64,000 bases of DNA, from contig JAQGDQ010000179.1 of assembly GCA_030141605.1 (NCBI GenBank), forward strand, positions 124,001-188,000, in the 5' to 3' direction. The notes beneath the pieces are model-generated. The model saw only the letters and a program-made list of their open reading frames with translations, had not been told where the DNA came from and did not search any database. Positions within the stretch are counted from its first letter, which is position 1. Every line of letters begins with the position of its first letter. This stretch comes from Tubiluchus corallicola. Lineage: Eukaryota > Animalia > Priapulida. The position numbers and the translations under genes were made by a program. Positions 13,142 to 62,366 of this stretch are shown here, piece after piece.

Positions 13142-16100
13142 ATGAGAAACGCCGTAACAGTAGTGTTTGCGTGTTTGTTCTTGTTTTGTTTTGCTGATGA
13201 TTTAGACCTAGTGAGGGTCGAGATAAACCAAGGAATACTTGAAGGGTACAACATGGTAGTGTCTGATAATAGTAGTGTTAGTGTGTTTAAGTTTGTGCCT
13301 TTTGGGAAAGAACCAAGACGATGGATGGTAAGTATTTTGGTTGTTTTATATTTCGGCGCTTAAAGTTAATATACATGAGGTTTGAGTTAAAAAGCAATAA
13401 AAGGGGTGTCGAGAAACTATTCCTCCATCTTGCGGAAGATTTTGATGTGAAATGATTTTAGGCGAAATGACCGTGTTAAAAAGCATTTATTTTTGAGTGT
13501 CTAGTTCATTTATTTCAGTGTCTAGTTTTGCCGTTATTTACAGCTCTGTGGACATAAATAGACAGCTAAGGGAGCAATTCATGTCGGTTTCTGAATCGGA
13601 ATGGTGTCGCGATTCATTTCTTTAAGAACTGCGTTTATTTTTGATATCTGACAACAAGAAGTGGAAAGAATTTTAAAAAAAGATTTGATAATAAATATAG
13701 CTGGCCTATCATATCCGAATATCTTGTACCTTTTTAGTTAACTTGCAGGGATGACTGCAGTGACACTACAGTTTGTGACTTTTGTAGAGAGAAATATTAC
13801 TATTATAATCACTTTCACATGGTAAATCATTCTAACACGTAGATTGTTCATATTTTATTTAAATATAAGTTTGTTTCGCACATTGCAAAAGTACACTTAA
13901 AGCAAATAAATGTTTGCAAATTAACTATAAATTGCTTATTTTAATTCATATGGCAAGTCACAGAAATGAGGGAACACCTTGGATCTCTGGGAGGGGGGGG
14001 GGGGCGTCAACATGAAATACTTATTGAATTTATTTGACATTACAAAGTTAAAACACCGCCAGCAAAATTTCTTACAGCGTTGAATGTAACCTTGAAAACA
14101 TTAAGATTTTATTACGTTTTGAATTAGCAAAAAATGTTTACTGTCTGTATTTACATTCGTTGTAGGATTTGAATTTTATGTAACAACTTTTACACTTTTT
14201 CTTGTGCTTTTTTGAAAACCCGCAAAAAGACACCTGATTCTTACCTCTTACTATTTCAGAAGTGTTTCTTCTGACTTAGCGTACAAAATTTTGAATCGAG
14301 CGCAGACAATGTAAATCGCAGTGATTTGAATAAAAATTAAATGAGTAGAACAGAATTACAAAAATCAAAGATATAACTATTCTTACTGAAAATCGTGGAA
14401 CATGAGGCACCAGTGTTTGTGAACATGTGAGTCGTTGTGATTGTATTTCAGCCTCCGGAGCCCGCAGATGGTTGGGATGGAGTTCGAGATGCAACTAAGA
14501 CTGGACCAGCTTGTTATCAACGAAGTGGTGGAAATAATTCGTTAATAGGAATATACTGGCAAAGCGACGATTGTTTAAATGCAAATATCTATGCACCAGA
14601 TGTAAGAGTTCCCTCTCCCTTTGATTTTAGTGTAAACGCTAAGGAAAATGATTTAATATTCAGTCTTTAACAAAAGCTAAAGAGCACCTCGCTTCACAAA
14701 TATTTAAAAAAATTTAGTGTTTAAGACCATGAATGTTGAAAACAATAATTCAGAACCCTGACAAGTATTGTAGCATCCATTATACATGTAGTATTTGGAT
14801 GGGACAACCTACTGTTTTTGCATGTGTGCAAAAGGGTTTAGGTTTATACAAAAGATTCGACACAAAAGGTTTAGGTTTCAAATTCTAAAAAAAATTTGCA
14901 TAGTGATTTTAAACTTGTGATATGATTGCACAGTAGTACTATTGTTATTATATTATTAACTATGAGTTAACCTAATTTTCATAATAACGTGTAGGTAATC
15001 AGCAATAAAGGAGAAAAGTTTCCTGTTATGATATATTTCCATGGAGGTGGTTACAGAACAGATTGGGGTGGTAATCCCTTCTATGAAGGAGATGAACTTT
15101 CCAGATATGGCGTTGTCTACGTGGCTGGAAATTACAGACTTGGCCGTTTTGGTACAAGATTATAACATTAATTTTTTTAGTCTTTAGCAAAAAGAATATT
15201 TTTACCTTTGTCTTTTTTATATTCTTATTTACCTTCTCATGGAATTGGAGCAGTTTATTTACAGTATTCAGTTTTTTTAATGTATAAATACTGTGTCGTC
15301 CCGAAAAAACTTTCCTCCAAACATGCTTGCAGTTCTTCATTCTGGTAGAGACATTTGTAAAAAGAGACAGGCATCGTCGTGCTGTCGGGCTTTTTCTTCT
15401 TCCCAAAAGCTACAAATTTCCCTCCAAGACTCCCATTCCTCGCCGCTGAGATGTTGAAAAAACGTTCTAATGGCTCTCTTTGGTGGTCTTGAAAGAAAAT
15501 GTATAGTTCTTTGGAATAAAAAATGCACGAGAAATATGTATAATATTGTGTATGTTCCAGGAGAATCCGGACTACATGATGATTTTTTTTTAAAAAACCT
15601 TGTAGCAAGCTGAAAGGTTAATTTCTTTGGCGGGGTAATTAGACTCTAGATTAAAGATATGATTCAGGGAAAACAGCAAAATTAACAAAAGAAACTCCAA
15701 ATTTTTTAATAAACGATGAAAGTTAAGCTAAAGCAACAATAAGTACCATTGAAATTGAAGTTTTTATATTGGTTATGACTTATCTTTTCTAGGATTCTTG
15801 GGGACTGAGGATGAAGCAGCTCCAGGCAACTATGGCATGTTAGATCAGGTTCTACTGATGACATGGGTGCAGGAAAATATCGAATATTTCAATGGTGATC
15901 CAACTCGAGTGACCATATTTGGCGAAAGCGCAGGTGGCGCCTCTGTATCCACGCATATGCTGTCACCAAAAGCGTCAGGTGCTACTAGCTTACATAAATT
16001 TGCATTTCAATGTGAAACAAATTAAAGGTGGAGAACGTCACCATTAATGCCACCTGCATACCAGTACCTACGATTGTACAGAAAAAACAAAAGGAATAAA

Positions 16101-19100
16101 TAAAAACCTGCGAAAAAAAGATTTGATTTGGGTACAGAAAACTAATCATAATATCTGTGAGGCAGCTCTGACGCTCAGACAAGTAGTCGACGGGGGGGGG
16201 GAGGGAGCAATGGGCTCTCCCTTTTCATCGAATTTAAAAAAATACGCACATTTTATATCATTCCTAGCTGATAGCCACAATTTGCATACAGTGAGAGCAA
16301 ATGTGGTCTATTTGTAAAATGTTTGTTTTGTCAAGTTGAAAGCATTACTCCTAGAAGAAGCATCACCTACCACAATAGCGCCCAGTGGATCGATTATACG
16401 ATCAATTCTCTGTCCAATGATGTGCCACACAGCAGCTACTACCACTGGGCTGCCACGCTACGCCCGTTTTTCAGGACCCATGTCGGTACCATACTTATAC
16501 TTATATAGCAGGTATCGACATGGTTTCCTTTAAACGCTCTCTGAACGGAAGCCATATCGTTGGATTTGCAATGATACGTAGAATCTGATGCACTGCGTCA
16601 AAGTCGCGAGCCGTTTCGCCACAATACTGCAAAAAATAGAATGTCCGGTCGGGATCCATGTCAGGATCAGCTGTTATGTTCAGTCTACGTTGTTTATAGT
16701 TTCCGAGATATGCAGCTTTTTAGAATAACTCAAAAACTAGACAGTGCTACTTGACCAAATTTGGTGTACTTGTAGCTAGGGTAGAGGGAAGCCTTAGCTT
16801 TTAATTTTGGGTCGTAACCCGTTGACTTGCCTGAGTTATATGACCCGAAAACTCTCAAAATATGTCACTTTCTGATAAACCATCACTCCTTCAAGAAGCA
16901 CCACCTATCCAAACGAAAAAAGTACTATGCTTTCCTATAGAAACCCCGCTAACGTAATTCTGTTACATAATTACTCTCCTGTTACATAATTACTCTTATG
17001 TTACATAATTATTCTTTTGTTACATAATAATATAATACCACGTAGAAATGATCAGAACCTGCAGCATTACTTTGATAACAACTTTGTTGTTTTATTTATT
17101 TTGTTTCTATTTAGGGTTTTTTCACCGAGCTATAGAGCAAAGCGGAAGTGCAGCCTCCGTATGGGGAGTTCAGCCCAATCCTCGCAAGTATGCCCTGCGT
17201 TTGGCAGAAGCCCTTGGATGCCCTTCCGCCCCCAACAATCTTCAAGAGACGCACGAAATGATGGACTGCATGAAGGCAAAACCCACTATGGAAGTGCTCA
17301 GAGCGAGCATTTATGTACGTTTTTCCTTTAAGAGTCTAGTTTTTAGATATTAAACGGCGATGAACTCGAATTAATAAACTTAATGGTTTATAATGGTTAA
17401 CCTAATTATGAAAAATTATGATCCAATCAGGATTCGAACCCAAAATGTAGTGGTATCGCACCACACGCTCTACCATTAGAACTGTCAACTCACATAGCAG
17501 ATATAACTGATCTAGTAGCACACAGTTCAAGCAGAGCCACCTATTCTCATTAAGGTGCAACTATCTAATTTATTCAAATTAATTGGTTTTTTGTTTTTTC
17601 TGACTTCAGATCTGCTCTATTGTGTGAGCTGACGGCTCCAATGGTTTGCCATTAGGTTAAATTGTTCATTAAACATCAGGTAAAACCGTTAGATTTATCG
17701 GTGCTGACTTATTACGATTCAATAACTAAAAATCTGATATTGTGTTAAAGCCTGCTAATTTGATCACACTGCATGGTTAATCTCAAATTTTTCTAAACTG
17801 CTTCATCCGCTGTGAGTTTGAATTTCTGCACTCAGCGTTATGGCTTAAATTTCACGGTCATTAAAGCACAAGAAAATCGTATGCCTACATAAAGCTTACA
17901 TAAAAAATTCGTCTCGAAATTTTATACCACTTACGTACTACCTTTTCGTATGCATGGCTTGCATCGGCCGTAACGCTGTATGAAACGTGTAAATTTAAAC
18001 TCCCGCGATGACCGTTAGGCGCAGCCATTTTTATGGTAGGTCGTTTGAAACAAGTTTTGATAACATTAAGTAAAGTTTGAAAAAATAATCGGAGCATTCG
18101 TAGCATACATGTTGCTAATTAAGTAAAATTTAAAATTACTGTATCTTGTCAATAAGATTGGCGCACCCTGGAGGATGAGTCTGCGACATTTCACCAATTG
18201 GCACAAACATTTTAAATTATTAGTCCAGTTACATAAGTCTTTCCAGCAGATAAGTGAAATGCTAACTAATATAGATTTGCACGGAAAATCTTTTGGGTCA
18301 TAATTTAACAGGGGTCTTTTCTTCCCCTGATTTACGCAGCTTAGTGACGTCATGTAATGGCGCCGTCGGAACAGTATAGCGGGGATTTAAAACGAAAATT
18401 CCTTTCAACGCTAATACGATATGTGCATAAAATTGCTGTAAAGTAGTATAATTTTTAAGGCGATTTTTCTGAAACCTACTTCAGGTGTCCCTTTTCTTGT
18501 CTTTTAAAAAATTGGCAATTCTAGTTCTTCGTCCAAGCACGTAGACTCAGCATTCAACTAATGATAAGTACATATAAATAGTTTGTTATCCTGAGTCAGC
18601 AATACAAGCTCAGAGTTTAAGAGGAGTCGAAAAGATCGACATTTAGACAGAAAAATCACTTAGTTCTTTCATTATTTTAAGACCTTCAGGCATTCGTGTC
18701 ATGTTCAGAAAATGTTAACGAAAAACAAAATATCAACAGAAATTGTTGTAAAATACAGTTAAAAGATATTACAAAATGCCAAACTATTTTACACAACAAA
18801 GTTAGAAATTAATTTTAATACTAAATTATGTTATTTCTGCATTTGCCTTTGCTGTTAATCAATTAATCAATTTATTGTAACATACCTATTGTAAGAAGAA
18901 ATGTGAGCGTTAAGCCTTGAGTATTTATACCGTGTCTAGTCTGAAGACTCATTATTACAGTTGAAAAGGGCACCCAAAATGATTTATATTAGACAGGTGA
19001 TGCAGCAGAAGCATTTGCACCGTGTGTCGATGGTTTCATGGGAGAAGACAGTTACTTACCTGACTATCCTCGAAATCTTTACAATTCTGGACAATACAAT

Positions 19101-22100
19101 CACGTGCCGTTTATTGGAGGAGTCAACAAAGATGAAGGAGCAAATCTGTTGGGTTTGTGTAAAAATTACTTTTATGTACTTCACCTTCACATCAGTTAAG
19201 CCTACACACAGTGATGCGAAATAGCACTATAACAGCACAGAAAAGCTTTTGCAGTTTCATTTAAGTAAATAAAACTGTTTCTAGACTGACTACAAAACTT
19301 ATTACTGATTTTTTTTCATTATTCGGCACTTTCTTATCGTTATTGTAAAAAAATATGACAAGCAAACAAAGTAAAAAAATTCCATAAGCTTGACAATAGC
19401 GCAGGTAGTTGTCTTCTGTAACGCATGGACATGCCCGCCTTTAAATATCTAATATTTTTAATCCTTAATCGGTCAGAGAATCAATCAGAATCGCAACAAA
19501 GTCCGCATTTGTGATTCTGGTTGCCTCCCTGATCAGTTAATGATTAAAAATGATTCATGACAGAAAATATTTCGGAGCACATCAATAAGTTATGAACCAG
19601 CTTCAATTATGAAATAGGTCAGCATTTCTTCACGAGTGTTTAACAAATCGTGACTTTCTTACATAGGTGTACTGAAACCCAAAATATCGTTCTCAGGACT
19701 TCTGGTTTTCGGTTCATAAGCGCCTATAGTTTGCTCTTGTTTTTTGTTACGATTCTTAGAGGAGCTGATTAAAAAACCAGTTTCTCATTTTGGATTCATT
19801 CTTTCTTTCCTTCCGGTCTTTTCCTTATATCTGTGGAATTATGAGTCTCTGCCACAACAACAGAGAAAGTTGTTTCCCTGAAAAGTACAACGTCGACGTA
19901 TTCAAGAAGAATATCAATATATACCTTCTATCATTAATGAATTAATTATATGAATTCTGTTTCTCTGAAGTTTGAACATGTATTCGTCACTTCACCTTTT
20001 TCATGTAGCCTTTTACCTTGTGGCGCTTTATATAAAAAATTGGGTCAGAAAAAATAAAAAGTGCAACAACCGACTGTTCAGCATTTTCCTCTTGTACTTC
20101 AGTAGTATACTATCAGTGTTTAGTTCGTATTGCAGAAGTCTGCAATGGCATATTTGAAAAACCTGTTACGCGGGCTGTCAATAGAATATACATGGTTTTG
20201 CTAACATGATTGATAATTATGTTTTCCCAGAGACCACATGAACAAAACGTGTTAAGTTATACATTTGCAGCACAAAGAGAACTAATAATAGCCTGTCTGT
20301 ATTGTCATGATACACGCCATTTAATATTATTAAGTAACTTGTTTGATGTTGCTGGAAACGATGTTTATATAAAGTCAACTGGAATTATCGATTAGATTGC
20401 CATACTGGCCTGGTGAAGAAATCAGCAAACAAGAAAAAGTATAAGGGATCCACAACCGTAACTTTATCATCACAAACAAAGTATCCAGAGAAAAAGTCAT
20501 ATAAAATGGCAAAAACATTGATATCGTTCATGTTCCTCATTAAGTATCATGCTCTAGTAAAGGCTGAGATGAACATCTACAACATCTGTAACACTAGTGT
20601 AGAAAAGAAACATGGTGATGTTGAAAATAAAGGAATCGAAAGCGCACTAAACCAGTCATATGTTGTATACAGCGCTGGACTTAAAGCTGGTGACATTTTA
20701 CTCAATGGTGAGAACCTAAATGTTGGTTTATATGAAGGTCTTGATGGACCACAGGTACTTTTACCGATCCTTGATTCGCTGAGTGTCGCATTAAACTTTA
20801 CGTACACAAGAAGATATCTTAAATTTAATGAAACATCGTTTAATGAGGCATTGAGCAATGGGGAGATAGATCTATTGCTGGAACTACTTTTGGTAGTTAG
20901 AGGAAGAACAGAGTATATGACATTCTTGCAACCGATCTTTTACTCGCCTCAAGTTTTTGTGATACCGAGAAAAGGTTACGAAGGTTTTAGTTTAGCAGAT
21001 ACTTTTACCTGGGTTATTTGGTTACTTTTGGTAATTTACAGTATAGTAATCGTACTAGTCTTATGGGTTCTATATTTCAAAAAGACATCAGGGAACGATT
21101 CAGAGGATACTAAATATGGACTCACTAATTTCGTGCTACACGCACTATCGTCATTTCTGGCGCAAGGGTGGACTTACCAACCCCGCAGAACACCTTCAAG
21201 AATCATAATTGCATTTTGGTGGCTGTTCACTATTATCGTGGCAACCATGTTCACGGGGACTTTGGTTAGCAAACTGTTTGTGAGCAACGTCAACTATCCT
21301 TTTAAATCACTACAAGAATTAGTAGACAGTGACATAACCCCAGTTACAATTGGTAATTTTGTTGATACGCAAATGCTGAAGCGGAGTGACCCAGATTCAT
21401 ATTACGGAAAACTTTGGAAGAAAATGGAAGCCGATGAAAATGTCCCAGCCGAATCTTCTGCAGTGGCAATGGAATTAACACTTACTGGGAAGTACACGTA
21501 TTTCCGTTCACAATACGAGGCAATGTTAAACGTGGCGCAAGATTACAAGAAACATGGAAGATGCAGATTTGCATTTGCGCCTATCACATCTGTACCACGC
21601 CCGATAGCAATGGCCGTTCCAAAGAAAAGCAGGTATGAAGATGTACTGAATTATGGGTTGGATCTATTGTTTCAAGCTCATGAAATAGACAGAGTAACGC
21701 ATTTAATGATAAATCCAGCAAAAAAGTGCTTTGAGACACCTTCGCAAATTGTGGGAGCCTCTGCAATCACTATCGATCAATTGAACACAGTCTTTTTACC
21801 ACTTTTCTTGGGATTTGGTGTTGGCATTATTACTGTACTAGTTGAGATTATTCATAATAAGGTCAAATGTTGAGCATGTAACCTAGACGTAGGCAAAAAT
21901 TGAAAGTTTCTGCGAAAATGTTAAAAAAACCGTTAAAATTGCAATTAAAGATTCAATATTCCAAATTTTGTTGTAGAGATTGCAAAAAGATACGTCAGCT
22001 CTTTCGAAGTAACAGTTTTTGTTTGTTTGTTTTCTTTCTAGTCAAAGCGCGACCCAAATCGCAACTCGTCTAACTGTTGTTCTTGTTCTTGTTGCTAGTA

Positions 22101-25100
22101 TCACTTTTTTTTGAAAAAAGCTCAAAACTCTTTAAATTTGCAATGGATCGTCAACAAAACTTTACAGGAAAATACTACAATGAATTTCGGATCCCCTGAC
22201 AGAGCCAGATTTCCTATCTGCCATTTTGAATTCAATATAGCGGCGATAACATTCTATTCGAAAAACCTACAGGAATGTATTAGAAATAATGCAATATAAT
22301 ACAATATAATACAATATATAAATAATATATATATATATATATTAGAACCAATTTGCGATACGTTATTTCGAATTCAAGATGGCTTCAATTTCGAGAAAAG
22401 ATTAGGACTTCGGGAATTCGCAACGAATCGTCACGAAACTCTACAGGAGTATGCTAGAACGAGTTCTGAATCGACTGACAGAGTCCGATTTTCGATCTGC
22501 CGTTTTAAACACAAGATGGTGATGATACATTTCCGGAAAAAGCCCAAGGATCTGCAAATGAGCTGTCACGAAACTTCGCAAGAATGTACTAGAATTCCGC
22601 ATCGCTTGGCAGGTCTTTAATCCGCTGTTTTCAATTCAAGACGGCGGTGATAACATTATTTTCGTAAAAATTCTTAAGCTTTCCCAATTTGTTATGGATT
22701 GTTATGAAACTTCACAGTTTCTATGAAAAGTATTCTAAGAAAAATACACTAGACAAATTCTTCATCCACTGTCGAAGTCGCATTTTTGATTTGCGTCTTG
22801 AATTAAAGATGACGGCGATACTTCGTTTTCGAAAAAAGCTTAAGGCTGTACCAGTTCGCAAAGGATCGTCATGAAACTTTACAGGAATTTACTAGGTCAA
22901 TTTTCGCGCTGACTTTCCGAGTCGGTGTTTCGATTTGACATTTTGAATTCAAGATGGCAGCGATGACCATTTTCGTAAAAAAGTCTAAGGCTCTGTCAAT
23001 TTGCAATGGATCGTCATGAAACTTTATAGAAACATATTAGAACGATGGAGTCAAATTTGAGATCCGTTATTTCAAATTCAAGATGGCTTCAATTATAAAA
23101 AAAGAATAGGACTTCGAGAATTCGCAACGAATCGTCACGAAACTCTACAGGAGTATGCTAGAATGAGTTCTAAATCGACTGACAGAGTCCGATTTTCGAT
23201 CTGCCATTTTCAACACAAGATGGTGAAACTTTATAGAAACATATTAGAACGATGGAGTCAAATTTGACATCCGTTATTTCAAATTCAAGATGGCTTCAAT
23301 TTCAAAAAAGAATAGGGCTTCGAGATTTCTAATCCAGCAGTTCAGCGAGTCCCTCGGCCAACAGTTCGGGCCGAATTGTTAAGCCCAGACATATGTTTAT
23401 AAGCAAGTATTCTAAAACAAATTAAAAACAACACTCGCTATAATCAACAAGCGTCCTAATTCGGATTCTGCGCCACTATAGATTAAACATTTATATCAAA
23501 ATCAACAATTCAGTAAAATTTAATATCAAATTTCCACCGCACGAGTAAGACACAGTTATAAACCAATTTATAATATCGCGTACCTTATATAAATATACAA
23601 AAGAAAAACAAAATTATTATTATTTACAAGGATAATAAAAATTTAGTATAGCGCACGAAGCAAGGGCATGTTAGCAAATCGAGGTTTGCTTTTTTAATTC
23701 TAGTAAATAGGTTGTTTAAGTAAGATTTAGCTTTAATTGTCTTTTTTCTTTGTGCCCCATTGTTATCGCAGCTGCCTTACTGTGCAATCTTCAATCCTCA
23801 ATCGTTAATTCGATAAGGTCAACAGACATCTAAACTGAAATGGTGCGTGACGTCAAAGTGCGCTGTGCATCAACCAACAATGTCCATTCGATATCACAAA
23901 GGAACAAGGTGCTAGGTGCACTGACACATTTGCCTTCAGCGGTTTATGTTTTTTTTTATTAATAAACGCTGATTGATTATCTCTGTAAATTTATTTTCAC
24001 ATATTGTCGGTGGTTTTGTGGTAAATAAATATTAAGTTTTCTTACATTATATTATGTATTTCGAACAAGACTTGTAGAATATACAGATTATAGATTAATA
24101 TCAATATCAAAAGTTTTTTCAAATGTTCGAAATTGCAAACGAGTGAGTGAGTGATTAGTGATGAACGATATTCGTTTATTGACTAGGTGATGTCCTGTCG
24201 GTCCGTTCTTCTTAGAACAAAGTTCTTATACGGTTCGGTAGCACATTACAATGTAGTGTAGTGAACAGCTGCAGATAATCAAATGGATGTGGCAAGACCG
24301 AACCTATCTGGTTATCAACAATAATTATCTAACACGAAACACAAAATCGACAGAGTTTCCAGCTCTAGCGTAGACAGAGTATGCACACATTTTGACTGAA
24401 AGCCATTTGAAACAAGTTTAGATAACATTGCGTAGAGTTTAAAAAATAATCACAGCACTCGTAGAGCACACACACTTCACTCATTTAGCAAAAGTATAAA
24501 TTACTGTATTTTGTTAATAAGATTAAAAATACGTTTTTAGTGAATCAGTGATGCATAATGGGAAGCTGGGTCTGGGGCCTTTTTACTAGAGTATACATCT
24601 TTCATTATATGTCGTCGAAGGAGATGTTTTATAACGTCTTTCAATGATAATTTTAATCAGTCCTAAAAACTACATAAAGGTGGAAAAAATAATGGCACGT
24701 CGCATAACTATTGATCACTACATGCAGTTGCGTGTCTGATAATTGATATATTTCAATGCGATATACATTACTGTTTCAATAAGCCTTTAGCTGCTGTCAT
24801 TTTAGTCAATTCGCATTGTTTGTATACTGTCAGAACTATATACTCGTAAGTTAATGGTACACAAGATATCAATGTTTTGGTATTGTGATACGAATATAAC
24901 AAATGTGTACCGATACGAATATAATGATATAGTATCTAGCATTGACAGACACCAAAATAACAAGGCAATCATTTCACTATTTTTGTGGATAAGATGTTCT
25001 AGCAATGAACTGCTTTCCAGATCTAGAAGGAAAATAGAACCAGGTTTTCTTTGCGCCTTTTCTCATTCGCCATATTACCCAGCTGTTTTCTTTTCGTTTT

Positions 25101-28100
25101 AAAAATGTGGAACTTTCTCATCTTATTGCTTGTTGTGCAGATACTGTCAAATGTTCAAACTACTAGTTGCCACATTTGTCAAAGCAGAGATCTCCAAAAG
25201 GTTAACAAAATTTCGACGATGGGGCATAATCGGACGTTTGCTTTGTACAATAAGTTTGAACGGCATTCGCATTCGATGGAAGGAGCTCATCTTAGAGTAG
25301 CTGCATGGGAAGACGGAAGGAGCAATCCGTTTCTCTTTGAGCTGATCAGGCTGCTTAGTGATTTTCTGAATTTTACATTCACATTTGAGTACTTTGACGC
25401 ACCACCAGAGGAAATATTAAGCAGTGGAAAAATAGACCTAATGCTTGGCATTGTGACTGTCGTAAAAGAGAGAATGAAGTACATGGACTTCCTGCAGCCT
25501 ATTATTTATTCCTCACAAACATTCGTTATTCCTAAGCTAGAGTATCAAGGTTTTCATTTGATTGGTCCTTTTACTACAGCTGTTTGGCTTCTGCTGCTAG
25601 TTTATAGTATAATAGCAGCAATTGCTTTAAAATTTGTAAACTCTTACAGTATCAGAACGAGCCATGATTCACAAACACATTTATCAATAGAAAATGGACA
25701 GGAAGAGCTAAATAATCAGGACACTTCTTATTTTGTGCGACACACGTTGTCTTCATTTCTCTTGCAAGGAGGAACGTATGGACCTCAAAAAGTGTCCCCC
25801 AGAATGGCCCTTGCCATGTGGTGGCTATTTGCAATTATTATAACTGCAATGTATAACGGAAAGTTAGTAAGCGAACTTTTTGTAAGTAATCCAAGTTATC
25901 CATTTGACACATTGCAAGACTTAATAGAGAGTGACATAACCCCTGTTACTAAAGGAAATTTTGTCAGCACGTTAATGTTAAAGAATAGCCCACCTGATTC
26001 GCACTACGGCAAGCTTTGGAAAAAAATGGAACTCGATCTCGATGTGCCAGCTGATAATGATAGAATTGCATTAGAAATGACAGTTACCGGAAAGTATACG
26101 TATTTTCGGTCGGAATTTGATGCAATAATGGATATAATTCACGATTACAAAGTTTACAGGAAATGCAGATTTTCTTTCTCCCCAATTAAAGCTATCGCAC
26201 AAACAAATTCGTTGGCTGTGCCTAAAGGAAGTAAATATGAAGAAGCTTTGAACTTTGGTATAGCAACGCTTGTGCAAACAGATCAGGTGGACAGGCTGCT
26301 AAAATCTGCCTTGAGACCAGCAAAACTATGCGTAGATATTCCCTCCCAAAGTGTTGAAGCAACTGCAATCACCGTGCAACAACTTGACATAGTTTTCTGG
26401 GTTCTATTGGCTGGAATTGGGATCGGAATTGTTGTGCTAGTTTTTGAACAAGTTGTTGTTTATCATAGGTCAAGACGACGAGAAATTTAGTAAGCAAGGT
26501 TTACTAAGGAAGAACTAAGGAAGAAGTCGGTTGCAATTCTCGGTTCTTTATTGGCAACCAACATGTCAAAACGTACTCGTGTCATGGATTTAAATTACGA
26601 TTAAACAGTTGTAGTGTTCAAGCATCTGCTAACCATTATTTTTGTTAGTTTTTCTGGTTGTATTGTAATTGTATTTAACAGAGTTCCCAGCAAGTGACAA
26701 GTTTGTTAAACTATAGTAACGTTTTTATTCAATCAGTAATGTGAAGAGACCCAGCCTTGCGGTTCAATGTTTGAGTATAACAAATTTTTGTTATTAATTT
26801 TGAACTGTTAAGCTAATTTCTAAGTTTGTGAGAGGTCACCATGTAACTACTTATAATTTTATGATAAACTAGATTGCTTAAATGAATTCAAAACCATTAT
26901 AGTTTACAGGCTGGAGACAAATTTCTTTTTGTGTTTTGGAATCTGTTAGTCTGCAGTATGCGTTGATAAATATACGTAAACAGCTGCCTGATTTGCTCCC
27001 GAATTAAATCTCTATTGTTTCGATTCTTATTGTTATTGTTATTGATATTGTTATTGTTATTGTTATTGTCATTGTTATTGTTATTGTTATTGTTATCGTT
27101 ATCGTTATCGTTATCGTTATCGTTATCGTTATCGTTATCGTTATCGTTATCGTTATCGTTATCGCTATCGCTATCGTTATCGTTATCGTTATCGTTATTG
27201 TTGTTGTTATTATTATTGTTACTGGTATTGTTATTATTGTCGTCGTTATTGTTATCACTGTTTTTGGTTCAGCGCAGTTATTCCTGAAAACAAAACAAGA
27301 AAAACTACATGCTTTAGGAGCAGTTAGCAGAAATCTCACTCCCTCTTGCAGGAATGTATGCCGGCGTTCCAGCAACGGAAGTTACAATGGAAAGCTTCCG
27401 GGAGGTAGTGATTCCAACGATGATACGCAAAGGTGGATTTGTCGATCCATCTGGAGCTATTTACGATCTAGGACTAATGGAATACACCCAATGGACGGAT
27501 CCTAGTCGACGACTGGGTGCCGTGGATTCAGCCGTGAGGGTATGGAGTGGGAGTTTAATAATGCTTATTTGTGTGGCCGCTTGAGTCTATACAAACAGAA
27601 ATATGGCTTAAAATTATGTCTACGAGCCGAAATAAAGAACAAAATAAAGTAAGAATTGCTGGCAACCCGTACTGAGTCGCAGATAAAGTTCATATTTTTT
27701 TTATCAAATATCCACCAATTAAGTGCTTATTCCCGCAAAGTAATACATTCGCTGCCATGATTATTCGGCAACGACATTAAGTGGCGTTTAGCTGGCATCC
27801 GGAACGCCTTATGCGTTATCCACCTGCGGAATTGCTGCGTATAGAATATGGATGCCAGATAGTAGCAGTGATGGTGGTTTATTGACCTAAAACATAAAGT
27901 GGCGATAAGTGCCACTTTACTCGATGTTATACCGTGAACAACGACTCGGTTATCTCGGTCCTACGCTAATTAATTCGTTTTGACGAAATAATTGTCAAGC
28001 TGTTTACTTGTTAAGATCGAAAGATATTTATACCGATTAATATATCGTTAGGAAAAATAAAGTAAACAAATAATAAAAACTTTAAATAACTAGTGGACGT

Positions 28101-29085
28101 TTTTGACTGTGTCAAAAACTGTGGTAAGATTCTGCTTCTGTGACAGGAGATGCTTTAAAAGGCAGTTTTTTTTATTCACGAATAAAAATTGTTTTCAAAA
28201 TAATTAACAACATTGTGTGTTGTTAACTGTACGTAACTACGGTTGTGTCTGACTCGAGTAACAGTTTCAATGAAATCAGAGCTTGTCACTTTTTGGCCGG
28301 TGACCAGGGACTCAAGGTTCAACCAAATACGAGTCAAGATATACCATTCAATTCGTTTCATCAAGACTTTTCATTTGATATATTACACGACACCGTTACT
28401 CGAAACTGGAAGCACTGGTGCCCCGACACCCTCGATTTTGTTTTTCTGCCACTGGCGGAAAATTTTCCCCTATGCAAATGGCTCATTTCATGACACTACC
28501 TAGCCACATACCAAAAATTGTAGCCCTAGCTCAAAAACTATAGGAGGATCTAGCCTAATGAAAAAAAAAACAAGAATCCCTATCCGCTCTGTGACTTTTG
28601 ACCCGGGGGTGACGTGTCACATATTAACAAAAATCCCCTTGCCAGGTGAGTGCGCCCTGTGAGTTTCGTGAAGCTAGCGCTATGCGTGTGTGAGTTATTA
28701 CAGAAACAAAACGTCACAAATAATAAAAATAAAAACCGGGGGAAAATCAAGAAGATTCTGCTTATATAATAATAAGAAACAATAAAAAAATTCCACATAC
28801 GTTCTAGGACAACCTGTACGTTGATCATTCAACCTCTTTTTAGATGTTAAGCGATGCAGGACACAAAGCAGCCGTAGAAATGGAATGCAGGGGTCACGTC
28901 AGAAACGGAATTCCAACATGGCTGTACCATCTTAACTTTGCCAATGACAACTCTCCTCTTGGCAACCGTATGCTTCCTATTACTACTTTGCTGACATAAT
29001 TTCATAAGGCTGAATTAAAAATTTTAAGAACTAATCATTGAAAAAAGTTCTAGGTACAAATACCATTGTTTTAGTATTGCAAGAA

Positions 29086-29172
<87 letters not shown>

Positions 29173-30561
29173 ATAGTAGTAGTAAAAGAAGAAGAAGAAG
29201 AAGAAACAGATGGTTCAGTCGAGATCGATGAACTTGGTTCTACAAGCTTAAGACTTGTGCGACCACAGTAAATTTTCTTATAATGCGGTATTATTGCTCA
29301 AATTTAGAGCACATAGCCGCCTTATTATCGTCCTAGTTTTTTCTGCTAGAACTACTTTGTCTTGACTAACTTATTTCAAACTTATTGGCACTGTAAAAGT
29401 TGTATCTCGTCTACAGCTAACTTGAACTATTACAGTTGTCATACACATGGCTGAACTACTGTACATCTTTAACTTACCGTACAAGGAAGATTTTCAAGTT
29501 TGTCCAAACGACGACTTGTGTCTGACACCAGGCTGGTGGTTTTTCAACGACAGAGACAGAATATTTTCCACGTTCATTTCTACACTATGGACAAATTTCG
29601 CAAAATTTGGGTATGATAGCATAAGCTTAAAAAAGTTCACTCTCTTTGGATTCTGTTGATTTTTATTGGATTTTATTCTGCACCACACATCAACGACAAC
29701 CACAACTACAGCCACAATCACAACAGCAGCAACAGTAACAGCAGCAGCAACACAGCACAACAACAGCAGCGACGACGACGACGACAACAACAACAACAAC
29801 AACAACGGAAACGACAACAACAATATCAACAATTAGATCAATATCAGCGGTTTTGTTAATATAACGTCTTCACTTTCAAAATATTAGTATATGTTTTAAT
29901 TTCTTCAACGTAGTTCGCTTGCATGCCACCATAAACAGGTTCGCTACAAACTGTTAAATTATTTTCTCAGAGATCCAACTCCAGGTGAGGGCGTAATGAT
30001 GCCAAATGGTCAGAAATTCAAATGGCAAAGAGTTACCGAGGATGACGTTTATTACGCTGCTTTAGATGAAGTGTCCGAATCGCTGACACCTTTCATGCCA
30101 AGGCAAGCTAAATTCTGGAACTGCCACATCTTTGAGTAAGTCCAATTAATTTTTAAACGTGAATGGTAAATGGTAATTCTTAATGAGAACGGCTTTGCAA
30201 TTATTTTGTTGCATGTTCTAGGTTGGACGAGAAAGCCAACTGGCCTCTTTTGGATTCCATACCTGCCAATTCCTTGCCTCTTGGAAACCATTGGCGCGAA
30301 GACTGTCGTCACATGTACACTCCAAGTCCGGACAAAATTATCAGCGCTGTTAGCAAGAAAAAACCAAAAGTTAAGAGACATGTGAAGACAGGAGATGTTT
30401 ATCAGACCGACAACATCACAAAATTGAAGATTGATGCTGAATCAAACTCGCGCTGGCCTGCTTTGCTGTTAAGCGTTTGCTGTGCCGTTACACTCATCCT
30501 ATGCGTATCATCAATACTCATATTGAAAATGAAAAAGCGACAATTGAAACAACAAATTTAA
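13142..30561 (+). CDS. Type-B carboxylesterase/cholinesterase-family enzyme CES-A; signal peptide plus C-terminal TM anchor; 11 exons, ~676 aa
   Basis: Exons: 13142-13327, 14452-14601, 14995-15151, 15793-15978, 17115-17314, 18993-19152, 27352-27539, 28844-28967, 29436-29610, 29971-30135, 30222-30561 (2031 nt, phases consistent). Motifs: [69 protein letters not shown] (Ser), GVNKDEG (Glu), VIHMAEL (His), WTNFAKFGDP. Hydrophobic WPALLLSVCCAVTLILCVSSILIL followed by KMKKR. Confidence 0.92.
20506..21873 (+). CDS. Intronless ionotropic-receptor-like channel IR-1 (iGluR family, no ATD), 455 aa, nested in CES-A intron 6
   Basis: Uninterrupted ORF (track 20413-21873; first ATG 20506, followed by a hydrophobic signal-like segment). 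S1 IDLLL..VVRGRTEYMTFLQP; M1 FTWVIWLLLVIYSIVIVLVLW; M2 pore HALSSFLAQG; M3 RIIIAFWWLFTIIVATMFTGTLVSKL; S2 PFKSLQEL..GKYTYF..C..AMAVPKKS..LNYGL..C; M4 VFLPLFLGFGVGIITVLVE. Confidence 0.9.
   Translation: MAKTLISFMFLIKYHALVKAEMNIYNICNTSVEKKHGDVENKGIESALNQSYVVYSAGLKAGDILLNGENLNVGLYEGLDGPQVLLPILDSLSVALNFTYTRRYLKFNETSFNEALSNGEIDLLLELLLVVRGRTEYMTFLQPIFYSPQVFVIPRKGYEGFSLADTFTWVIWLLLVIYSIVIVLVLWVLYFKKTSGNDSEDTKYGLTNFVLHALSSFLAQGWTYQPRRTPSRIIIAFWWLFTIIVATMFTGTLVSKLFVSNVNYPFKSLQELVDSDITPVTIGNFVDTQMLKRSDPDSYYGKLWKKMEADENVPAESSAVAMELTLTGKYTYFRSQYEAMLNVAQDYKKHGRCRFAFAPITSVPRPIAMAVPKKSRYEDVLNYGLDLLFQAHEIDRVTHLMINPAKKCFETPSQIVGASAITIDQLNTVFLPLFLGFGVGIITVLVEIIHNKVKC
22045..23378 (+). mobile_element. Non-autonomous element with internal ~120-bp tandem subrepeats (HINE/Helentron-associated-like), copy 1
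   Basis: Repeated motifs tcgtcatgaaactttacagg / gaattcaagatggc; 5' gacccaaatcgcaactc plus a TG-rich microsatellite; 3' hairpin tcggcc...ggccga. Homologous to 31235-32002. Confidence 0.6.
25105..26490 (+). CDS. Intronless ionotropic-receptor-like channel IR-2, paralog of IR-1, 461 aa, nested in CES-A intron 6
   Basis: Uninterrupted ORF (track 25051-26490; ATG 25105, signal peptide MWNFLILLLVVQILSNVQT). S1 IDLMLGIVTVVKERMKYMDFLQP; M1 PFTTAVWLLLLVY; pore SSFLLQG; M3 RMALAMWWLFAIIITAMYNGKLVSEL; S2 PFDTLQDL..GKYTYF..LAVPKGS; M4 VFWVLLAGIGIGIVVLVFE. Confidence 0.9.
   Translation: MWNFLILLLVVQILSNVQTTSCHICQSRDLQKVNKISTMGHNRTFALYNKFERHSHSMEGAHLRVAAWEDGRSNPFLFELIRLLSDFLNFTFTFEYFDAPPEEILSSGKIDLMLGIVTVVKERMKYMDFLQPIIYSSQTFVIPKLEYQGFHLIGPFTTAVWLLLLVYSIIAAIALKFVNSYSIRTSHDSQTHLSIENGQEELNNQDTSYFVRHTLSSFLLQGGTYGPQKVSPRMALAMWWLFAIIITAMYNGKLVSELFVSNPSYPFDTLQDLIESDITPVTKGNFVSTLMLKNSPPDSHYGKLWKKMELDLDVPADNDRIALEMTVTGKYTYFRSEFDAIMDIIHDYKVYRKCRFSFSPIKAIAQTNSLAVPKGSKYEEALNFGIATLVQTDQVDRLLKSALRPAKLCVDIPSQSVEATAITVQQLDIVFWVLLAGIGIGIVVLVFEQVVVYHRSRRREI
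27025..27255. repeat. Compound hexamer microsatellite (TTGTTA)n/(TCGTTA)n
   Basis: Directly visible; explains the spurious poly-IT and poly-LS ORFs. Confidence 0.95.
29080..29206. repeat. (GTA)n then (GAA)n microsatellite
   Basis: Directly visible. Confidence 0.95.
29690..29832. repeat. Low-complexity CAA/CAG/CGA trinucleotide tract
   Basis: Directly visible; intronic. Confidence 0.85.
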
Positions 30562-34167: not shown

Positions 34168-37100
34168 ATGAAATATTATATCAGTATTTTGGCGCTTATA
34201 TTTTACATTTCTTGGTGCTACTCAGCAGAGGAACTTGAGCTTATTCAGGTGGAGATTCCGCAGGGAATTTTGGAAGGTTTTAACGCTATAGTATCAGACG
34301 GTAGTAAAGTTAGCGTGTTCAGGAACGTTCCGTTTGGAAATGAGCCAAAAAGATGGATGGTAATTTTTTGTTTTCTACTCAGTTTCATAGTATATGAGCA
34401 TATTTATTCAGTAAAGTTCATACAAATAAACCACTCACCACTCATTTTAATTAATCACTAGATGAGTAAACCATTTTTCTCAGTTTGGGAGTGAATATGT
34501 TCAAAATAATATTTATTACAAAGCGAAGTGCTAGCATCTCTTTTTATATGGGCAATGATATTATTTTAAGCGTTTAAGCACCACAAATGTCTAGCACAAC
34601 ATTAACTTAATAAATGTTTCACAGGCGGTAACATAAGAGAATCAATATGGTCACATAGTATGAGCTATTATTTGTTACTTTTGCAGCCACCAGAGATGGC
34701 AGACGGTTGGGATGGTGTCCGAAACGCCACTGTCCACGGTCCAGCTTGTTACCAAAACAGAGGCAGCAATAGTTCGTTTGCTCAAGTGTATTGGCAGAGT
34801 GATGACTGTCTTAACGCTAATATCTATGCTCCCGAGGTGAGACTTTTTATTACTGAAACGTGTGACACTCAATGAGTAACAAAACAAAAATTAAGACAGA
34901 GACCAACACGTCTTGTTATCTTCAAATTTTTATTTGTTTTGTTGAAGGTTCAACGCTCAAAATGATTATTTTCACACAAAATAGGAATGAATGCAAATCA
35001 ATTTATTACAATCTACATACATATAGGCTACTTGCAGAGATTAATTTTTTAATCACCCTCTTTTCCATAAATTCCCGTTAAATGTAATTTCAGTTAAGTT
35101 ATCTTGAAAATAAATTTTGCTATTCTGAGACTTACCATAGTCGTAATCGTAAAGAAGACAAACTGAAGTCTCAAAAAGTTTTATTTTTCACAGGAGCTTT
35201 CATCCTTCAGGACTTCATCAGCTGAAATGTACTAGTATGGCCTAGATCTTGAAAGACATAGATCTTGAAGGTCTCTCAGGTTAGCAGCGCAGTCTTTTCA
35301 GCTGATGATGCTCGCTAGGGGGATCATTGAGACTGTTAAGGGCATTACGTTTTTTATTTAGATAGTTGTGTTAACTTTCACGTGAATTAATGTTAAGTTT
35401 ATGAAAACGAAACAAATACGTTGGCCTTCTGAGTAAAAGAAAAGTATTTTTTACTATGTGCAGGTAGAGAGCAATAAAGGGGAGCGTTTTCCCGTCATGA
35501 TATTTTATCATGGAGGTGGTTACAAGGACGACTGGGGAGGAAACCCCTTTTATCACGGAGATGAACTGCCCCGGTATGGGGTGGTTTACGTGGCAGGAAA
35601 CTATAGGCTTGGAAGACTAGGTATGCGCAAAGATTTAAGTTATTTTATTGTATAGAGCTGTATATGTTTGAACGTATGGAATGTTTTTGAGCCAAATTGC
35701 ACGAAGAAAGTAAAGTGCCTCAAACGCCACCAAAACAAAAAGACCAAAAAATGCGTATGTGGACACAAACGGGACCAAAAAATTGTTGCGGCTCAAACAT
35801 GGAGATCTAAATCCATTTATGGCTAAGTAAGCCACAAAGGTTACAAAAACAACGTATCATAGTGTACATAAAGTAGTAACACTGTACTAACTCAGCTTTA
35901 CGTCATTAATGAATCAAATGCATCTGTAATGATAAATGCGTCATGACTACATTTAGTTACTGCCATAATTATTTCTATATCATCTATGCTATTCATAAAA
36001 ACAGACTGATCCGTTTGGTATATGTCGAAAAATGAAGGATACATGTCCAAAATCTCAGAAAATAATTGTTTTCTAGGCAAATTAGATGCAGTACATCTCA
36101 TACTAATATGAAATTATTTCTCTATCTCGTTAGTATCAATGTTTGTTTGCATAGTCTCATGTTAGCTTGTATTTTGGCTAACATATCGTCTAATTTCAGT
36201 TTGTAGCTTGTGTGCTTTAATTCTAAATTTATTATATGGAGGTCTTCCATTTTAGAAATATTCAACATTATAAGTTAATTCTAAATTCTATAGTTACTTT
36301 TAAAGACCGTAACTTGTTCATGCCATTATTTGGCCTTCATCATTATATACAGATATACATATACAAATTATATATAGATTTTATTGTTCATATAAAATCT
36401 AAACACAATTGCATGAAGAGTTATTAATGTAACATTGTTGTGATAATAGTTATTTTTAATACTTGTGTGAGTTAATTGTTATTTGTTTTGTGCCACGATA
36501 TTCCCTTATACGGGGATTTGTCTCTAGTAAACGTTTATTTCACTATTTATTAAATCTACATTATTTATTTTTTTGTAATGTAATGTATGTAATGGTGGTT
36601 CAATAAAGAAGCATATATACAGAACTGAAAAAATACTGCTCAGTGCTTGTAGAAATATTGCAGCTTTTCTGTAGTTGATTTTAATAGTTCGTTAACGTTA
36701 AATGTTCCTTCATTGTTTCAAATATTCTGAAGCCCCAACCTATAAAAGTTTCATAATACATGTGGCACAGGCATATTTACTTTCAGAGCTTCAACACAAT
36801 TAATATGCACTTCTAAGGTATAAAATCGATCCCTAAATATTTATATCTCTGACAATTCTCCAACGTGTTTATAATAGAAATTTCTGTGCTTTAAAAGTTT
36901 ACCTTTATTAAAAAAAATCACAGTTTTAGTTTTAGATAAATTAACATTCAGAACCCAAATTTCACAAAAAGCTAGGTAATTTATTTAAACAGCCTGCAAG
37001 CCTGTTTGAATTTTACAGATTAAAATTACATCGTCTTCTAGGTGCATATTGGGCCAACATATTCGTTGAGCTTTTAGCATGCTACGACGTGAAGAAAACA

Positions 37101-40100
37101 TTTTTTCTTAAAATAGGTTGATCTATACGTTTCAGTGGATTCATGTGGACATAAATTTTCCAGAAATAGTCAAATTTCCATTTTGCGGCCACTTCCCAAA
37201 TGGTTCTTTCAAAAACTTTGCAAAGTTATAATTGCCAAAAACTTTTTAAAGAAAAATGCATGTCTTACTGCACTGCAGGTTTTCGTTTCTTTTTAGGCTT
37301 CATGTCAACTGCAGATGAAGCAGCTCCAGGCAACTATGGGATGTTGGACCAGGTCTTACTGATGAGATGGGTGCAGGAAAATATCGAATATTTCAATGGT
37401 GATCCGACTCGGGTGACCATATTTGGAGAAAGCGCAGGTGGTGCCTCGGTTTCTACGCACATGCTGTCGCCAAAAGCTTCAGGTGAAATTTTTATAGCAT
37501 AACCCTTTATAATAATATGACATCGTTTATTGAGCTAAATCACAGCTAAAAACAATCATCGATTTTGAAAATCTAAGAAAAGAGGATTCACTTACAGCCG
37601 GGATGGCTCAAACGTGTGTACAAAACAGATACGAAAACATTCATCTAACCTTTTTTCATATTATTTGTTTAAAGTCACAAGTCGTAGCTGACAAAAATCA
37701 TTTAGTGAAAATATAGCTCTCATTTCAGTGTAAATTAAATTCGCTCATATTGAAAAATGAAGATTTTGATAAGCGTATGTTTGAGGCATGCTATGGCTTT
37801 TGCTGTAACTGCTGTGCTACCTGGTTGTTTAGGTCCGCCTAGCAAACTGGTCTCATTAAGCTACAGGGAGGCAACATCTGAATATGCAATTGTTTTTTAC
37901 ATAAATGAAATGTTTTCCCTGCCGCGTGGTTAATTTCACTTGAACAGGTCTTATACATTTTCATTCTTCATGATTACCTTGAAATTTATCTACTTGCGAT
38001 ATTATGTACTTGACTGACGCTTAGCTGTCATCCCTAATGCATATGCGTTATGGAGGTGCGATTTAAAATCGACTGAATTGGTTTATATTGTTTTCAATGC
38101 ACCCGTTTATCTGATCTCCTTTATCCACGTAGAACAATTTATGCTAATGGAGCTACATTGTTCATAATAAATATCGTAATGTTATCATAATCATGACAAT
38201 AACAAAAAATATAGCTGTAACGTGGTTAATTAAAAAAGTCCTTAGTCGTTCAATATACATTTATACAATCAATTTTAATAGTTTAGTAAGAAACAAGTTT
38301 TCAGCCATTTATTAAACAATCATTTTGAAGACGATCGGAACTGTGTTGAAATTTTTTACCTGTGCACATAATAAATTTCCCTCGTCACTAATGTCATTAT
38401 TATCATCAAAAAGGTTAGAAGGAAATGTCCCAAATGTCTGACAATATTTCGCATCACTAAAAATTTCAATATTTCTGTTAAAATCCTCTCAGGTTTATTC
38501 CATCGAGCTATAGGAGAGAGCGGAAGCGCCGTTTCTGTGTGGGGAGTTCAAACTGATCCTCGTAAATATGCTCTTCGTCTGGCTGAAGGTCTTGGGTGTC
38601 CTTCCAAGCCAAGCAATCTTGAAGAGACAATCGCCATGGTAGACTGTATGAAGAGTAAGCCAACGATGGAAGTTTTAAGAGCTAGTATGCATGTAGGTAT
38701 TAGATTATTTTAAATTTTGCATATTCATGTACAAAAAGTGCACATACGTCGTATTGTGCATCCCAGTTAAAATGCTTCGTTATTTTTCCTTTCAAACTGT
38801 GACTTAAACACTCCCTAACTGCAAATTGTTTTTCATTCAAATAAAAATATTTTAAAGAAAATTTGGTCGCCAGCCTGATCGTTTTGCTTTTGCAGTCTAC
38901 AAATTTAATTGCATTATAGTCTATACCATGGTACTAATAGTCTACGCAAAATGTGACAATCAGAATATTGGCGTGATGACGTGTGTAAATAATTCGAGTG
39001 AACGTAAAACAAAAAAAAACAACATAGCATATAAGCGGAATTTGCTAACAAAAAGATAATAAAATAAATTTTTTTTGCAAGAAAAGATGCGCTGAATGCA
39101 GTGGCAGTGTCTAGTGTTGAATGCAGTGTCAGTGTCTAGTGTTGAATGCAGTGGCAGTGTCTAGTGTTGAATGCAGTGGCAGTGTCTCGTGTTGAATGCA
39201 GTGGCAGTGTCTAGTGTTGAATGCAGTGGCAGTGTCTAGTGTTGAATGCAGTGGCAGTGTCTAGTGTTGAATGCAGTGGCAGTGTCTAGTGTTGAATGCA
39301 GTGGCAGTGTCTAGTGTTGAATGCAGTGGCAGTGTCCAGTGTTGAATGCAGTGGCAGTGTCCAGTGTTGAATGCAGTGGCAGTGTCTAGTGTTGAAAGCC
39401 GTTGCAGTGTCTAGTGTTGAATGCAGTGGCAGTGTCTAGTGTTGAATGCAGTGGCAGTGTCTAGTGTTGAATGCAGTGGCAGTGTCTAGTGTTGAATGCA
39501 GTGGCAGTGTCTAGTGTTGAATGCAGTGGCAGTGTCTAGTGTTGAATGCAGTGGCAGTGTCTAGTGTTGAATGCAGTGGCAGTGTCTAGTGTTGAATGCA
39601 GTGGCAGTGTTTAGTGTTGAATGCAGTGGCAGTGTCTAGTGTTGAATGCAGTTGCAGTGTCTAGTGTTGAATGCAGTGGCAGTGTCTAGTGTTGAATGCA
39701 GTGGTAGTATCTAGTGTTGAATGCAGTGGCAGTGTCTAGTGTTGAATGCAATGGCAGTGTCTAGTGTTGAATGCAGTGGCAGAGTCTAGTGTTGAATGCA
39801 GTGGCAGTGTCTAGTGTTGAATGCAGTGGCAGTGTCTAGTGTTGAATGCAATGGCAGTGTCTAGTGTTGAATGCAATGGCAGTGTCTAGTGTTGAATGCA
39901 ATGGCAGTGTCTAGTGTTGAATGCAATGGCAGTGTCTAGTGTTGAATGCAGTGGTAGTATCTAGTGTTGAATGCAATGGCAGTGTCTAGTGTTGAATGCA
40001 GTGGCAGTGTCTAGTGTTGAATGCAGTGGCAGTGTCTAGTGTTGAATGCAATGGCAGTGTCTAGTGTTGAATGCAGTGGTAGTATCTAGTGTTGAATGCA

Positions 40101-50574: not shown

Positions 50575-62366
<11,792 letters not shown>

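What the first reader, a model, noticed from the sequence alone, without database searches (positions are those of the whole stretch)
19153..27351. Two intronless IR-like ion-channel genes nested, same strand, inside an intron of a membrane-anchored carboxylesterase
Seen: CES-A exon 6 ends at 19152 and exon 7 starts at 27352, and both exons match CES-B in size (160 and 188 nt). The 8.2-kb intron between them holds two complete iGluR-family ORFs (20506-21873 and 25105-26490). The orthologous CES-B intron (42673-45022) is 2.35 kb and has none. Established: insect divergent Ionotropic Receptors are typically intronless chemosensory iGluR derivatives; carboxylesterases act as odorant/tastant-degrading enzymes; nested genes are more often antisense to their host. 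Inference: the receptors arrived by retroposition plus tandem duplication and may be co-regulated with an ecto-esterase that makes or clears their ligand, i.e. a physically linked receptor + ligand-processing module.
Basis: partly seen in the sequence, partly recalled or inferred. Interest (0 to 1): 0.85.

Follow-up and report, generated by a model that had tools for sequence, protein, structure and literature searches.

The report
Two receptor genes inside esterase intron
Two intact, intron-free genes for divergent glutamate-receptor-type ion channels, likely taste or smell receptors, lie on the same strand inside one intron of an esterase gene in what is likely a priapulid worm; the nesting is real but likely an ordinary gene-inside-a-gene arrangement, and nothing found ties the receptors to the enzyme.

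Summary
CES-A is an 11-exon carboxylesterase; exons 2-10 match CES-B in size and phase. Its 8,199-nt intron 6 holds two stop-free ORFs of 455 and 461 aa with the Lig_chan domain. CES-B's intron has no trace of one. The two ORFs are 44% identical and sister to each other (99/99; other pairings rejected), which supports local duplication. They belong to a clade of short iGluR-type proteins without an amino-terminal domain, whose 8 named members are Priapulus caudatus proteins on 8 different contigs. Retroposition into this intron is not shown. The receptor-plus-esterase module has one soft support: an invariant carboxylate-binding arginine (20 of 20), which dispersed relatives share. In Drosophila, 71.5% of same-strand nested genes are intronless and nested pairs diverge more in expression (PMC5174743). 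The scan found similar nested receptors before on other DNA, in unrelated hosts (TRPA, CRIM1). Expression and conserved nesting could not be tested. Verdict: real, ordinary nesting of IR-like receptors; low interest.

The parts
13142..30561 (+). CES-A, host carboxylesterase, 11 coding exons (13142-13327, 14452-14601, 14995-15151, 15793-15978, 17115-17314, 18993-19152, 27352-27539, 28844-28967, 29436-29610, 29971-30135, 30222-30561), 676 aa; predicted signal peptide, catalytic Ser210/Glu341/His454, predicted C-terminal membrane anchor 646-664
   Evidence: PF00135 on single exons (exons 6 and 9 below the curated cut-off); the exon 6 KDEG motif aligns to acetylcholinesterase at E 0.0014
19153..27351 (+). 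CES-A intron 6, 8,199 nt, GT-AG, phase 1; the host intron
   Evidence: junction inferred from CES-B, not seen in RNA
20506..21873 (+). IR-like receptor 1, single-exon ORF, 455 aa; keeps the S1 Arg (R134) and the S2 Thr, lacks the S2 Asp/Glu
25105..26490 (+). IR-like receptor 2, single-exon ORF, 461 aa; hydrophobic N-terminus 4-22, ligand-binding lobes and three membrane helices plus pore loop; R123, T289, S336
22045..23330 (.). Degenerate repeat array between the two receptor genes, also present at about 31240-31880
24388..24565 (.). Short high-copy interspersed repeat, also at about 18026-18159
   Evidence: summed contig depth about 7,500 against under 20 on the ORFs
27016..27255 (.). Simple 6/12-nt repeat shortly before the exon 7 acceptor
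34168..48828 (+). CES-B, tandem paralogue, 11 coding exons, 649 aa, no predicted membrane anchor; its intron 6 (42673-45022) has no receptor gene or remnant

Best explanation
Two intact single-exon ion-channel genes of a short, IR-like glutamate-receptor family sit in intron 6 of CES-A, likely as independent passenger genes: one family member likely landed in the intron and was duplicated in place long ago, and each copy would be transcribed on its own while CES-A splices over both. Shown: the gene structures, the family and the sister relationship. Inferred: each is a tuning subunit that needs a co-receptor such as IR25a and senses a small carboxylate-bearing molecule other than glutamate; having no introns of their own, they add no strong splice sites to the host intron, which is why the same-strand position is tolerated. 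No functional link to the esterase is needed.
For: Intact ORFs far beyond chance. dN 0.47 against saturated dS of about 2.5 between the copies, so long purifying selection. Sisters at 100/98 and 99/99; four alternative pairings with the two nearest database proteins rejected, p-AU 0.0016-0.0037. Clade of 20 database proteins; the 8 named ones are P. caudatus models on contigs of 8 different lengths, 12 are unnamed Logan records. Each ORF has its own ATG, and IR2 a hydrophobic N-terminus; acceptors in frame with the exon 6 donor score at most 4.1 against 11.3 for the true acceptor. About 72% of the local DNA is intron. Drosophila: nearly 10% of genes nested, 461 of 833 pairs in complex nests, 71.5% of same-strand internal genes intronless, nested pairs more divergent in expression (PMC5174743, passages). 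Divergent IRs are mostly single-exon, in tandem arrays and scattered (PMC2924276, passages).
Against: Both receptors have stayed intact in the intron for a time long enough to saturate synonymous sites, if they were duplicated in place, which fits retention by selection on position as well as neutrality. Both keep the carboxylate-binding Arg, and an esterase releases carboxylic acids. In mammals, conserved host/nested pairs can be co-expressed in a tissue-specific way (PMC11694760, passages). No transcript was seen for any of the three genes. The 11 listed differences in run X1 within the ORFs include 6 amino-acid changes, 4 of them clustered in codons 69-72 of IR2, so they give no sign of current purifying selection (29 further rows of the table were not shown).
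Confidence: 0.78

Rival explanations
1. Receptor plus ligand-processing module: the surface esterase CES-A and the two receptors are expressed in the same sensory cells, and the esterase hydrolyses esters to the carboxylic acids that the receptors detect, or clears the stimulus.
For: CES-A has an intact triad and a predicted membrane anchor that CES-B lacks. The S1 Arg is invariant in 20 of 20 aligned family members and the amino-group-binding Asp/Glu is absent from both window proteins; the Arg is conserved in acid-sensing Drosophila IRs (PMC7882480, passage). Same strand allows shared enhancers.
Against: The Arg is family-wide, including P. caudatus members on 8 different contigs, so it says nothing about this locus. 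Nested pairs in Drosophila are less alike in expression than other pairs (PMC5174743). No conserved upstream DNA between the two receptors (best E 0.54). Two earlier notes report similar receptors nested in unrelated hosts in other genomes (not checked by me).
Confidence: 0.08
2. The receptor ORFs are alternative terminal exons or read-through cistrons that use the CES-A promoter or an unseen non-coding first exon, so their expression is tied to host transcription, with or without a shared function.
For: Same strand. Candidate acceptors lie upstream of the ATGs (20271, score 8.5; 25021 and 25083, scores 4.3 and 3.0, within the range of true acceptors). AATAAA/ATTAAA hexamers follow both ORFs (21944; 26600) and could end a host transcript.
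Against: No strong in-frame acceptor for a CES-receptor fusion. Such scores and hexamers are common in this AT-rich intron (17 hexamers in 8.2 kb). No RNA evidence.
Confidence: 0.1
3. CES-A is a split or dead gene, or the intron is an assembly artefact, so the receptors are not really nested.
For: No read or contig spans the whole intron; the only run holding this DNA is in short contigs.
Against: Eleven exons in order with canonical sites, open frame, intact triad, dN 0.20 against dS about 2.1 relative to CES-B. No N in the window.
Confidence: 0.04

Closest known systems
Divergent (tuning) ionotropic receptors of protostomes (Croset et al. 2010, PMC2924276; Ni 2021, PMC7882480; passages read)
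   Same: iGluR ligand-binding and channel domains without the amino-terminal domain, single exon, low identity between paralogues, tandem pairs plus scattered copies, partial loss of the glutamate-binding residues.
   Different: Only about 60 residues precede S1, against about 200 in Drosophila tuning IRs. The S1 Arg is invariant here but kept in only 19 Drosophila IRs. No orthologue among named IR subfamilies; the clade's sister group is unresolved.
Priapulus caudatus gene models annotated 'glutamate receptor-like' (XP_014665330.1, XP_014671009.1, XP_014673014.1, XP_014675980.1, XP_014679180.1, XP_014671502.1, XP_014677000.1, XP_014677578.1)
   Same: Same clade (FastTree 1.0; 100/99 for the subset), same short length (384-487 aa).
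   Different: Only 25-32% identical; none is a one-to-one orthologue. Their exon structure and surroundings could not be read.
Same-strand intronless nested genes of Drosophila (Assis 2016, PMC5174743; passages read)
   Same: Short intronless duplicates in an enlarged intron, same strand, more than one internal gene per host.
   Different: Different phylum; expression is not known here.
AMPA, kainate and delta iGluRs (GluA2, GluK2, GluD1)
   Same: Best solved relatives by sequence (E 2e-18; profile E 7e-54) and fold (Foldseek E 5e-22).
   Different: 16-18% identity in the fold matches, no amino-terminal domain, SYTANLAAF replaced (AMYNGKLVSEL, TMFTGTLVSKL), amino-group-binding Glu replaced by Ser, single exon.

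Membership tests
iGluR/IR superfamily | Ligand-gated ion channel domain PF00060 with S1-M1-pore-M3-S2-M4 order | tested here: met
   PF00060 above the curated cut-off in both; model pLDDT 79.5 with the expected elements; fold matches are all AMPA/kainate chains among those listed. PF10613 was not hit at E 0.01.
Divergent ionotropic receptors (IR) | No amino-terminal domain (PF01094) | tested here: met
   About 60 residues before the first S1 strand; no PF01094 hit.
Divergent ionotropic receptors (IR) | Phylogenetic placement with IRs, outside AMPA/kainate/delta receptors | tested here: inconclusive
   The clade lies on the same side of a 97/98 branch as a named IR93a and short decapod proteins, away from 12 rows that I labelled classical by tree position and length (only one of them named). 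The backbone is unresolved, no named IR25a/IR8a or NMDA row was in the tree, and LG+G4 without mixture is prone to long-branch attraction (43 of 151 rows used).
Divergent ionotropic receptors (IR) | Loss of one or more of the three glutamate-binding residues (R, T, D/E) | tested here: met
   Both keep R and T and have Ser for D/E (alignment to GluA2; columns).
Divergent ionotropic receptors (IR) | Mostly single-exon coding sequence | tested here: met
   Full-length ORFs in genomic DNA. Introns in untranslated regions not testable.
Divergent ionotropic receptors (IR) | Expression in peripheral sensory cells and dependence on a co-receptor (IR25a/IR8a/IR76b) | not testable with these tools
   No RNA holder listed. 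An IR25a gene in this genome is reported by an earlier unreviewed note, not checked by me.
Retrogene | Intron-bearing parent, poly(A) remnant, target-site duplication | tested here: inconclusive
   No poly(A) tract right after either stop; no parent gene found; too old for the hallmarks to survive.
Catalytic type-B carboxylesterase (PF00135) | Ser-Glu-His triad, GxSxG motif and oxyanion-hole glycines | tested here: met
   GESAG at 208, KDEG at 339, VIHMAEL at 452, HGGGY at 128; the His assignment rests on exon 9 matching profile positions 430-470 at E 0.013 and on recalled motif knowledge.
Odorant-degrading esterase | Expression in sensory organs and activity on odorant or tastant esters | not testable with these tools
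   No expression or activity data.

The most novel reading that the evidence does not exclude
A priapulid chemosensory cassette: a membrane-anchored ecto-esterase carries in its own intron two minimal, acid-tuned ionotropic receptors expressed in the same cells, so that esters are sensed by converting them at the cell surface into the carboxylic acids that gate the channels.
Probability: 0.07. Interest if true: 0.75.

Novelty: new member of a known kind. Interest (0 to 1): 0.24.

Why it matters
As it stands, the locus adds two members to a little-described family of very short IR-like receptors in priapulid worms. My searches found no paper that pairs priapulids with IRs; one phylogeny notes Priapulus iGluR genes very distant from all others (PMC5225553, passage). 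That is useful for the history of ecdysozoan chemosensation. The nesting itself is a common genome feature. If the receptors and the esterase were co-expressed and chemically coupled, it would be a rare case of a receptor and its ligand-processing enzyme built into one locus, with an immediate ligand hypothesis for orphan receptors.

Tried and rejected
No genome is held for this window, so family size and placement in this genome could not be counted. No RNA holder listed; run X2 (RNA by guess) laid only 7 short repeat-like pieces and none on the exons or ORFs: no evidence either way. Word-index protein searches found nothing for IR2 or CES-A exon 9 and only 1 protein with the 20-row alignment; the HMMER search was the useful one. 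The search for P. caudatus esterase orthologues, meant to test conserved nesting, failed. Metagenome scans: no receptor relative among 245 pattern matches; 1 of 148 matches for exon 7 was L001, a 60.5% GC gene-dense bacterial-type contig with a 15-residue match, rejected as chance. In-frame CES-receptor fusion: rejected on weak acceptors. Receptor remnant in CES-B intron 6: none. Order of events from synonymous distance: four-fold sites differ at 58 of 77 (receptors) and 94 of 146 (esterase exons 2-10 without exon 4), p = 0.10, both near saturation, so undecided. The first IQ-TREE run timed out. Look-ups of earlier findings by sequence (IR2, P0002) and by place in this window were empty. A paper search for carboxylesterase + odorant-degrading enzyme + ionotropic receptor + nested + intron gave 0; PMC5850775 has no passage on priapulids or nested genes. 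No supplements were read. No complex prediction was run.
Full report
Observation. The window (35.9% GC, no N) carries on the + strand an OATP transporter gene, two tandem carboxylesterases and exons of a further gene. I placed all exons by hand. CES-A has 11 coding exons from 13142 to 30561 and CES-B 11 from 34168 to 48828. Exons 2-10 are identical in size and phase, all 20 introns are GT-AG, and the models give 676 and 649 aa, 70% identical over 625 aa. CES-A intron 6 is 19153-27351 (8,199 nt); the CES-B intron is 2,350 nt. The two nested ORFs (20506-21873, 25105-26490) are stop-free and carry PF00060. Shuffled intron DNA gave at most 215 stop-free codons in 200 trials. A clade profile finds no third copy or remnant in the window. 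The junction 19152-27352 is inferred, not read from RNA.

The host. CES-A has the GESAG serine motif, the KDEG glutamate, a histidine in VIHMAEL and the HGGGY oxyanion motif, a hydrophobic N-terminus, and a hydrophobic segment at 646-664 followed by a short basic tail. It is a predicted active, type I membrane esterase. The CES-B model has the same motifs and no anchor; the hydrophobic frames further downstream are mostly simple repeats and none was modelled as an exon. dN 0.20 against dS about 2.1 shows that both were kept under selection. Nothing here shows a sensory role; carboxylesterases of this family act in many tissues (own knowledge).

The receptors. They are 44% identical over 428 aa, with dN 0.47 and saturated synonymous sites (pS 0.72). 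An AlphaFold2 model of IR2 (mean pLDDT 79.5, pTM 0.63) has the two ligand-binding lobes and the membrane helices of an iGluR, and its listed fold matches are AMPA and kainate receptor chains. Only about 60 residues precede S1, so there is no amino-terminal domain. Against GluA2 IR2 keeps the S1 arginine (R123) and the S2 threonine (T289) but has serine (S336) in place of the acidic residue that binds the amino group; IR1 has the same pattern. In the 20-row family alignment the arginine is invariant (20 of 20), the threonine is present in 5 of 20 and an acidic residue at the third site in 5 of 20. A review states that this arginine is kept in acid-sensing Drosophila IRs and lost in amine-sensing ones (PMC7882480, passages). 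A carboxylate-bearing ligand other than glutamate is therefore a reasonable prediction; it is untested.

Relatives. HMMER against 1.84 billion representatives gave 16 proteins at E up to 1e-30. In a FastTree of 151 rows (2 dropped for short cover) the window proteins fall in a clade, support 1.0, with 20 database proteins. Eight are P. caudatus models on contigs of eight different lengths; twelve are unnamed Logan records whose organism and molecule type I do not know. The best P. caudatus identity is about 31%, so the window is likely from a priapulid relative rather than that species (inference; earlier notes on this genome say the same). IQ-TREE on 43 of the 151 rows recovers the clade at 100/99 and IR1+IR2 at 100/98. 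On 14 rows with a mixture model IR1+IR2 has 99/99, and four alternative pairings with P0001 or P0002 are rejected (p-AU 0.0016-0.0037). Duplication of one gene, most simply in place, is thus supported. The clade lies outside the classical iGluR rows and on the side of a named IR93a (97/98), but the backbone is open, most outgroup rows are unnamed and no named IR25a was included, so IR membership by phylogeny is likely, not proven. Language-model look-alikes are 405-538 aa clusters, mostly arthropod Lig_chan proteins, so short receptors of this build are not unique to priapulids.

How it most likely works. Divergent IRs are mostly single-exon genes that spread by tandem duplication and translocation after one or a few early retropositions (PMC2924276, passages). 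A compact intronless gene can land in an intron without adding splice sites. Here about 72% of the DNA between the OATP start and the CES-B stop is intron, leaving intron 6 aside and assuming 2.1 kb of OATP coding sequence. In D. melanogaster nearly 10% of genes are nested, 71.3% on the opposite strand, 71.5% of same-strand internal genes are intronless, 461 of 833 pairs belong to complex nests, and nested pairs differ more in expression than any other class (PMC5174743, passages). In mammals orientation is only slightly biased and most pairs show no direct correlation, though tissue-specific co-expression occurs (PMC11694760, passages). The layout here is the expected kind of same-strand nest. 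Each ORF has its own start, acceptors in frame with the exon 6 donor are weak (at most 4.1 against 11.3), and the upstream regions of the two receptors share no alignable DNA. Retroposition into this intron is possible but not needed and not shown. Whether the receptors arrived after the esterase duplication or were lost from CES-B cannot be told, because both pairs are near saturation (p = 0.10).

Against my reading. If duplicated in place, the pair has stayed there a long time. But the arginine is shared by all dispersed relatives, and one host out of two paralogues is a coin toss. Contigs of run X1 (type not on record, 0.42 of the words) show 11 listed differences in the ORFs, none a stop, 6 changing an amino acid; none of the 12 listed indels (of 16) falls in an ORF. 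This neither supports nor refutes current selection. The decisive tests, expression and conserved nesting, could not be run.

Earlier notes and literature. The scan has two unreviewed notes of single intronless IR-like genes nested in a TRPA gene and in CRIM1 in other genomes, both judged ordinary, and one of another same-strand intronless nested gene in this genome. I did not check them; they are leads that fit unrelated hosts. Searches for priapulid IRs and for an esterase-hosted IR returned no paper; the library lacks most subscription journals, and I read passages only, no supplements. GluA2 residue roles and the esterase motifs are partly recalled.

Verdict. The feature is real. It is best read as two old tandem IR-like receptor genes that ride in an esterase intron (0.78). 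The functional module remains possible at about 0.07-0.08 and would be of high interest if shown. Novelty: new member of a known kind. Interest 0.24, mostly for the short priapulid receptor family rather than for the nesting.

Noticed in passing
window 15793-15978 and 37297-37482: Exon 4 of CES-A and CES-B is 88% identical in DNA against 63-74% for the other internal exons; four-fold sites differ at 12 of 30 against 94 of 146 (p = 0.023, uncorrected, one of nine exons). Possible gene conversion over the catalytic-serine exon. Run X1 also shows seven differences in this exon, three matching CES-B.
   Followed up: partly
window 30222-30561 and 48576-48828: The two esterase paralogues differ at the C-terminus: CES-A has a predicted membrane anchor, CES-B ends in a polar tail, which suggests an anchored and a secreted form.
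   Followed up: partly
P0001-P0020, P0151 (database proteins): A family of at least 20 further short iGluR-type proteins (304-533 aa), with an invariant S1 arginine in the 18 of them that were aligned; 8 are P. caudatus models under misleading automatic names. Not found described in my searches.
   Followed up: partly
window 1455-11799: OATP/SLCO organic anion transporter gene on the + strand, ending 1.3 kb before CES-A.
   Followed up: no
window 39093-41745: A 2.6-kb tandem array of about 25/50-nt units inside CES-B intron 5.
   Followed up: no
window 60442-60693 and 61929-62363: Frames on the + strand that look like exons of a small Ras-family GTPase (RERG/RASL-like, recalled resemblance).
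   Followed up: no
window 57267-57771: Short broken frames that resemble the tail of a LINE-type reverse transcriptase (recalled resemblance).
   Followed up: no
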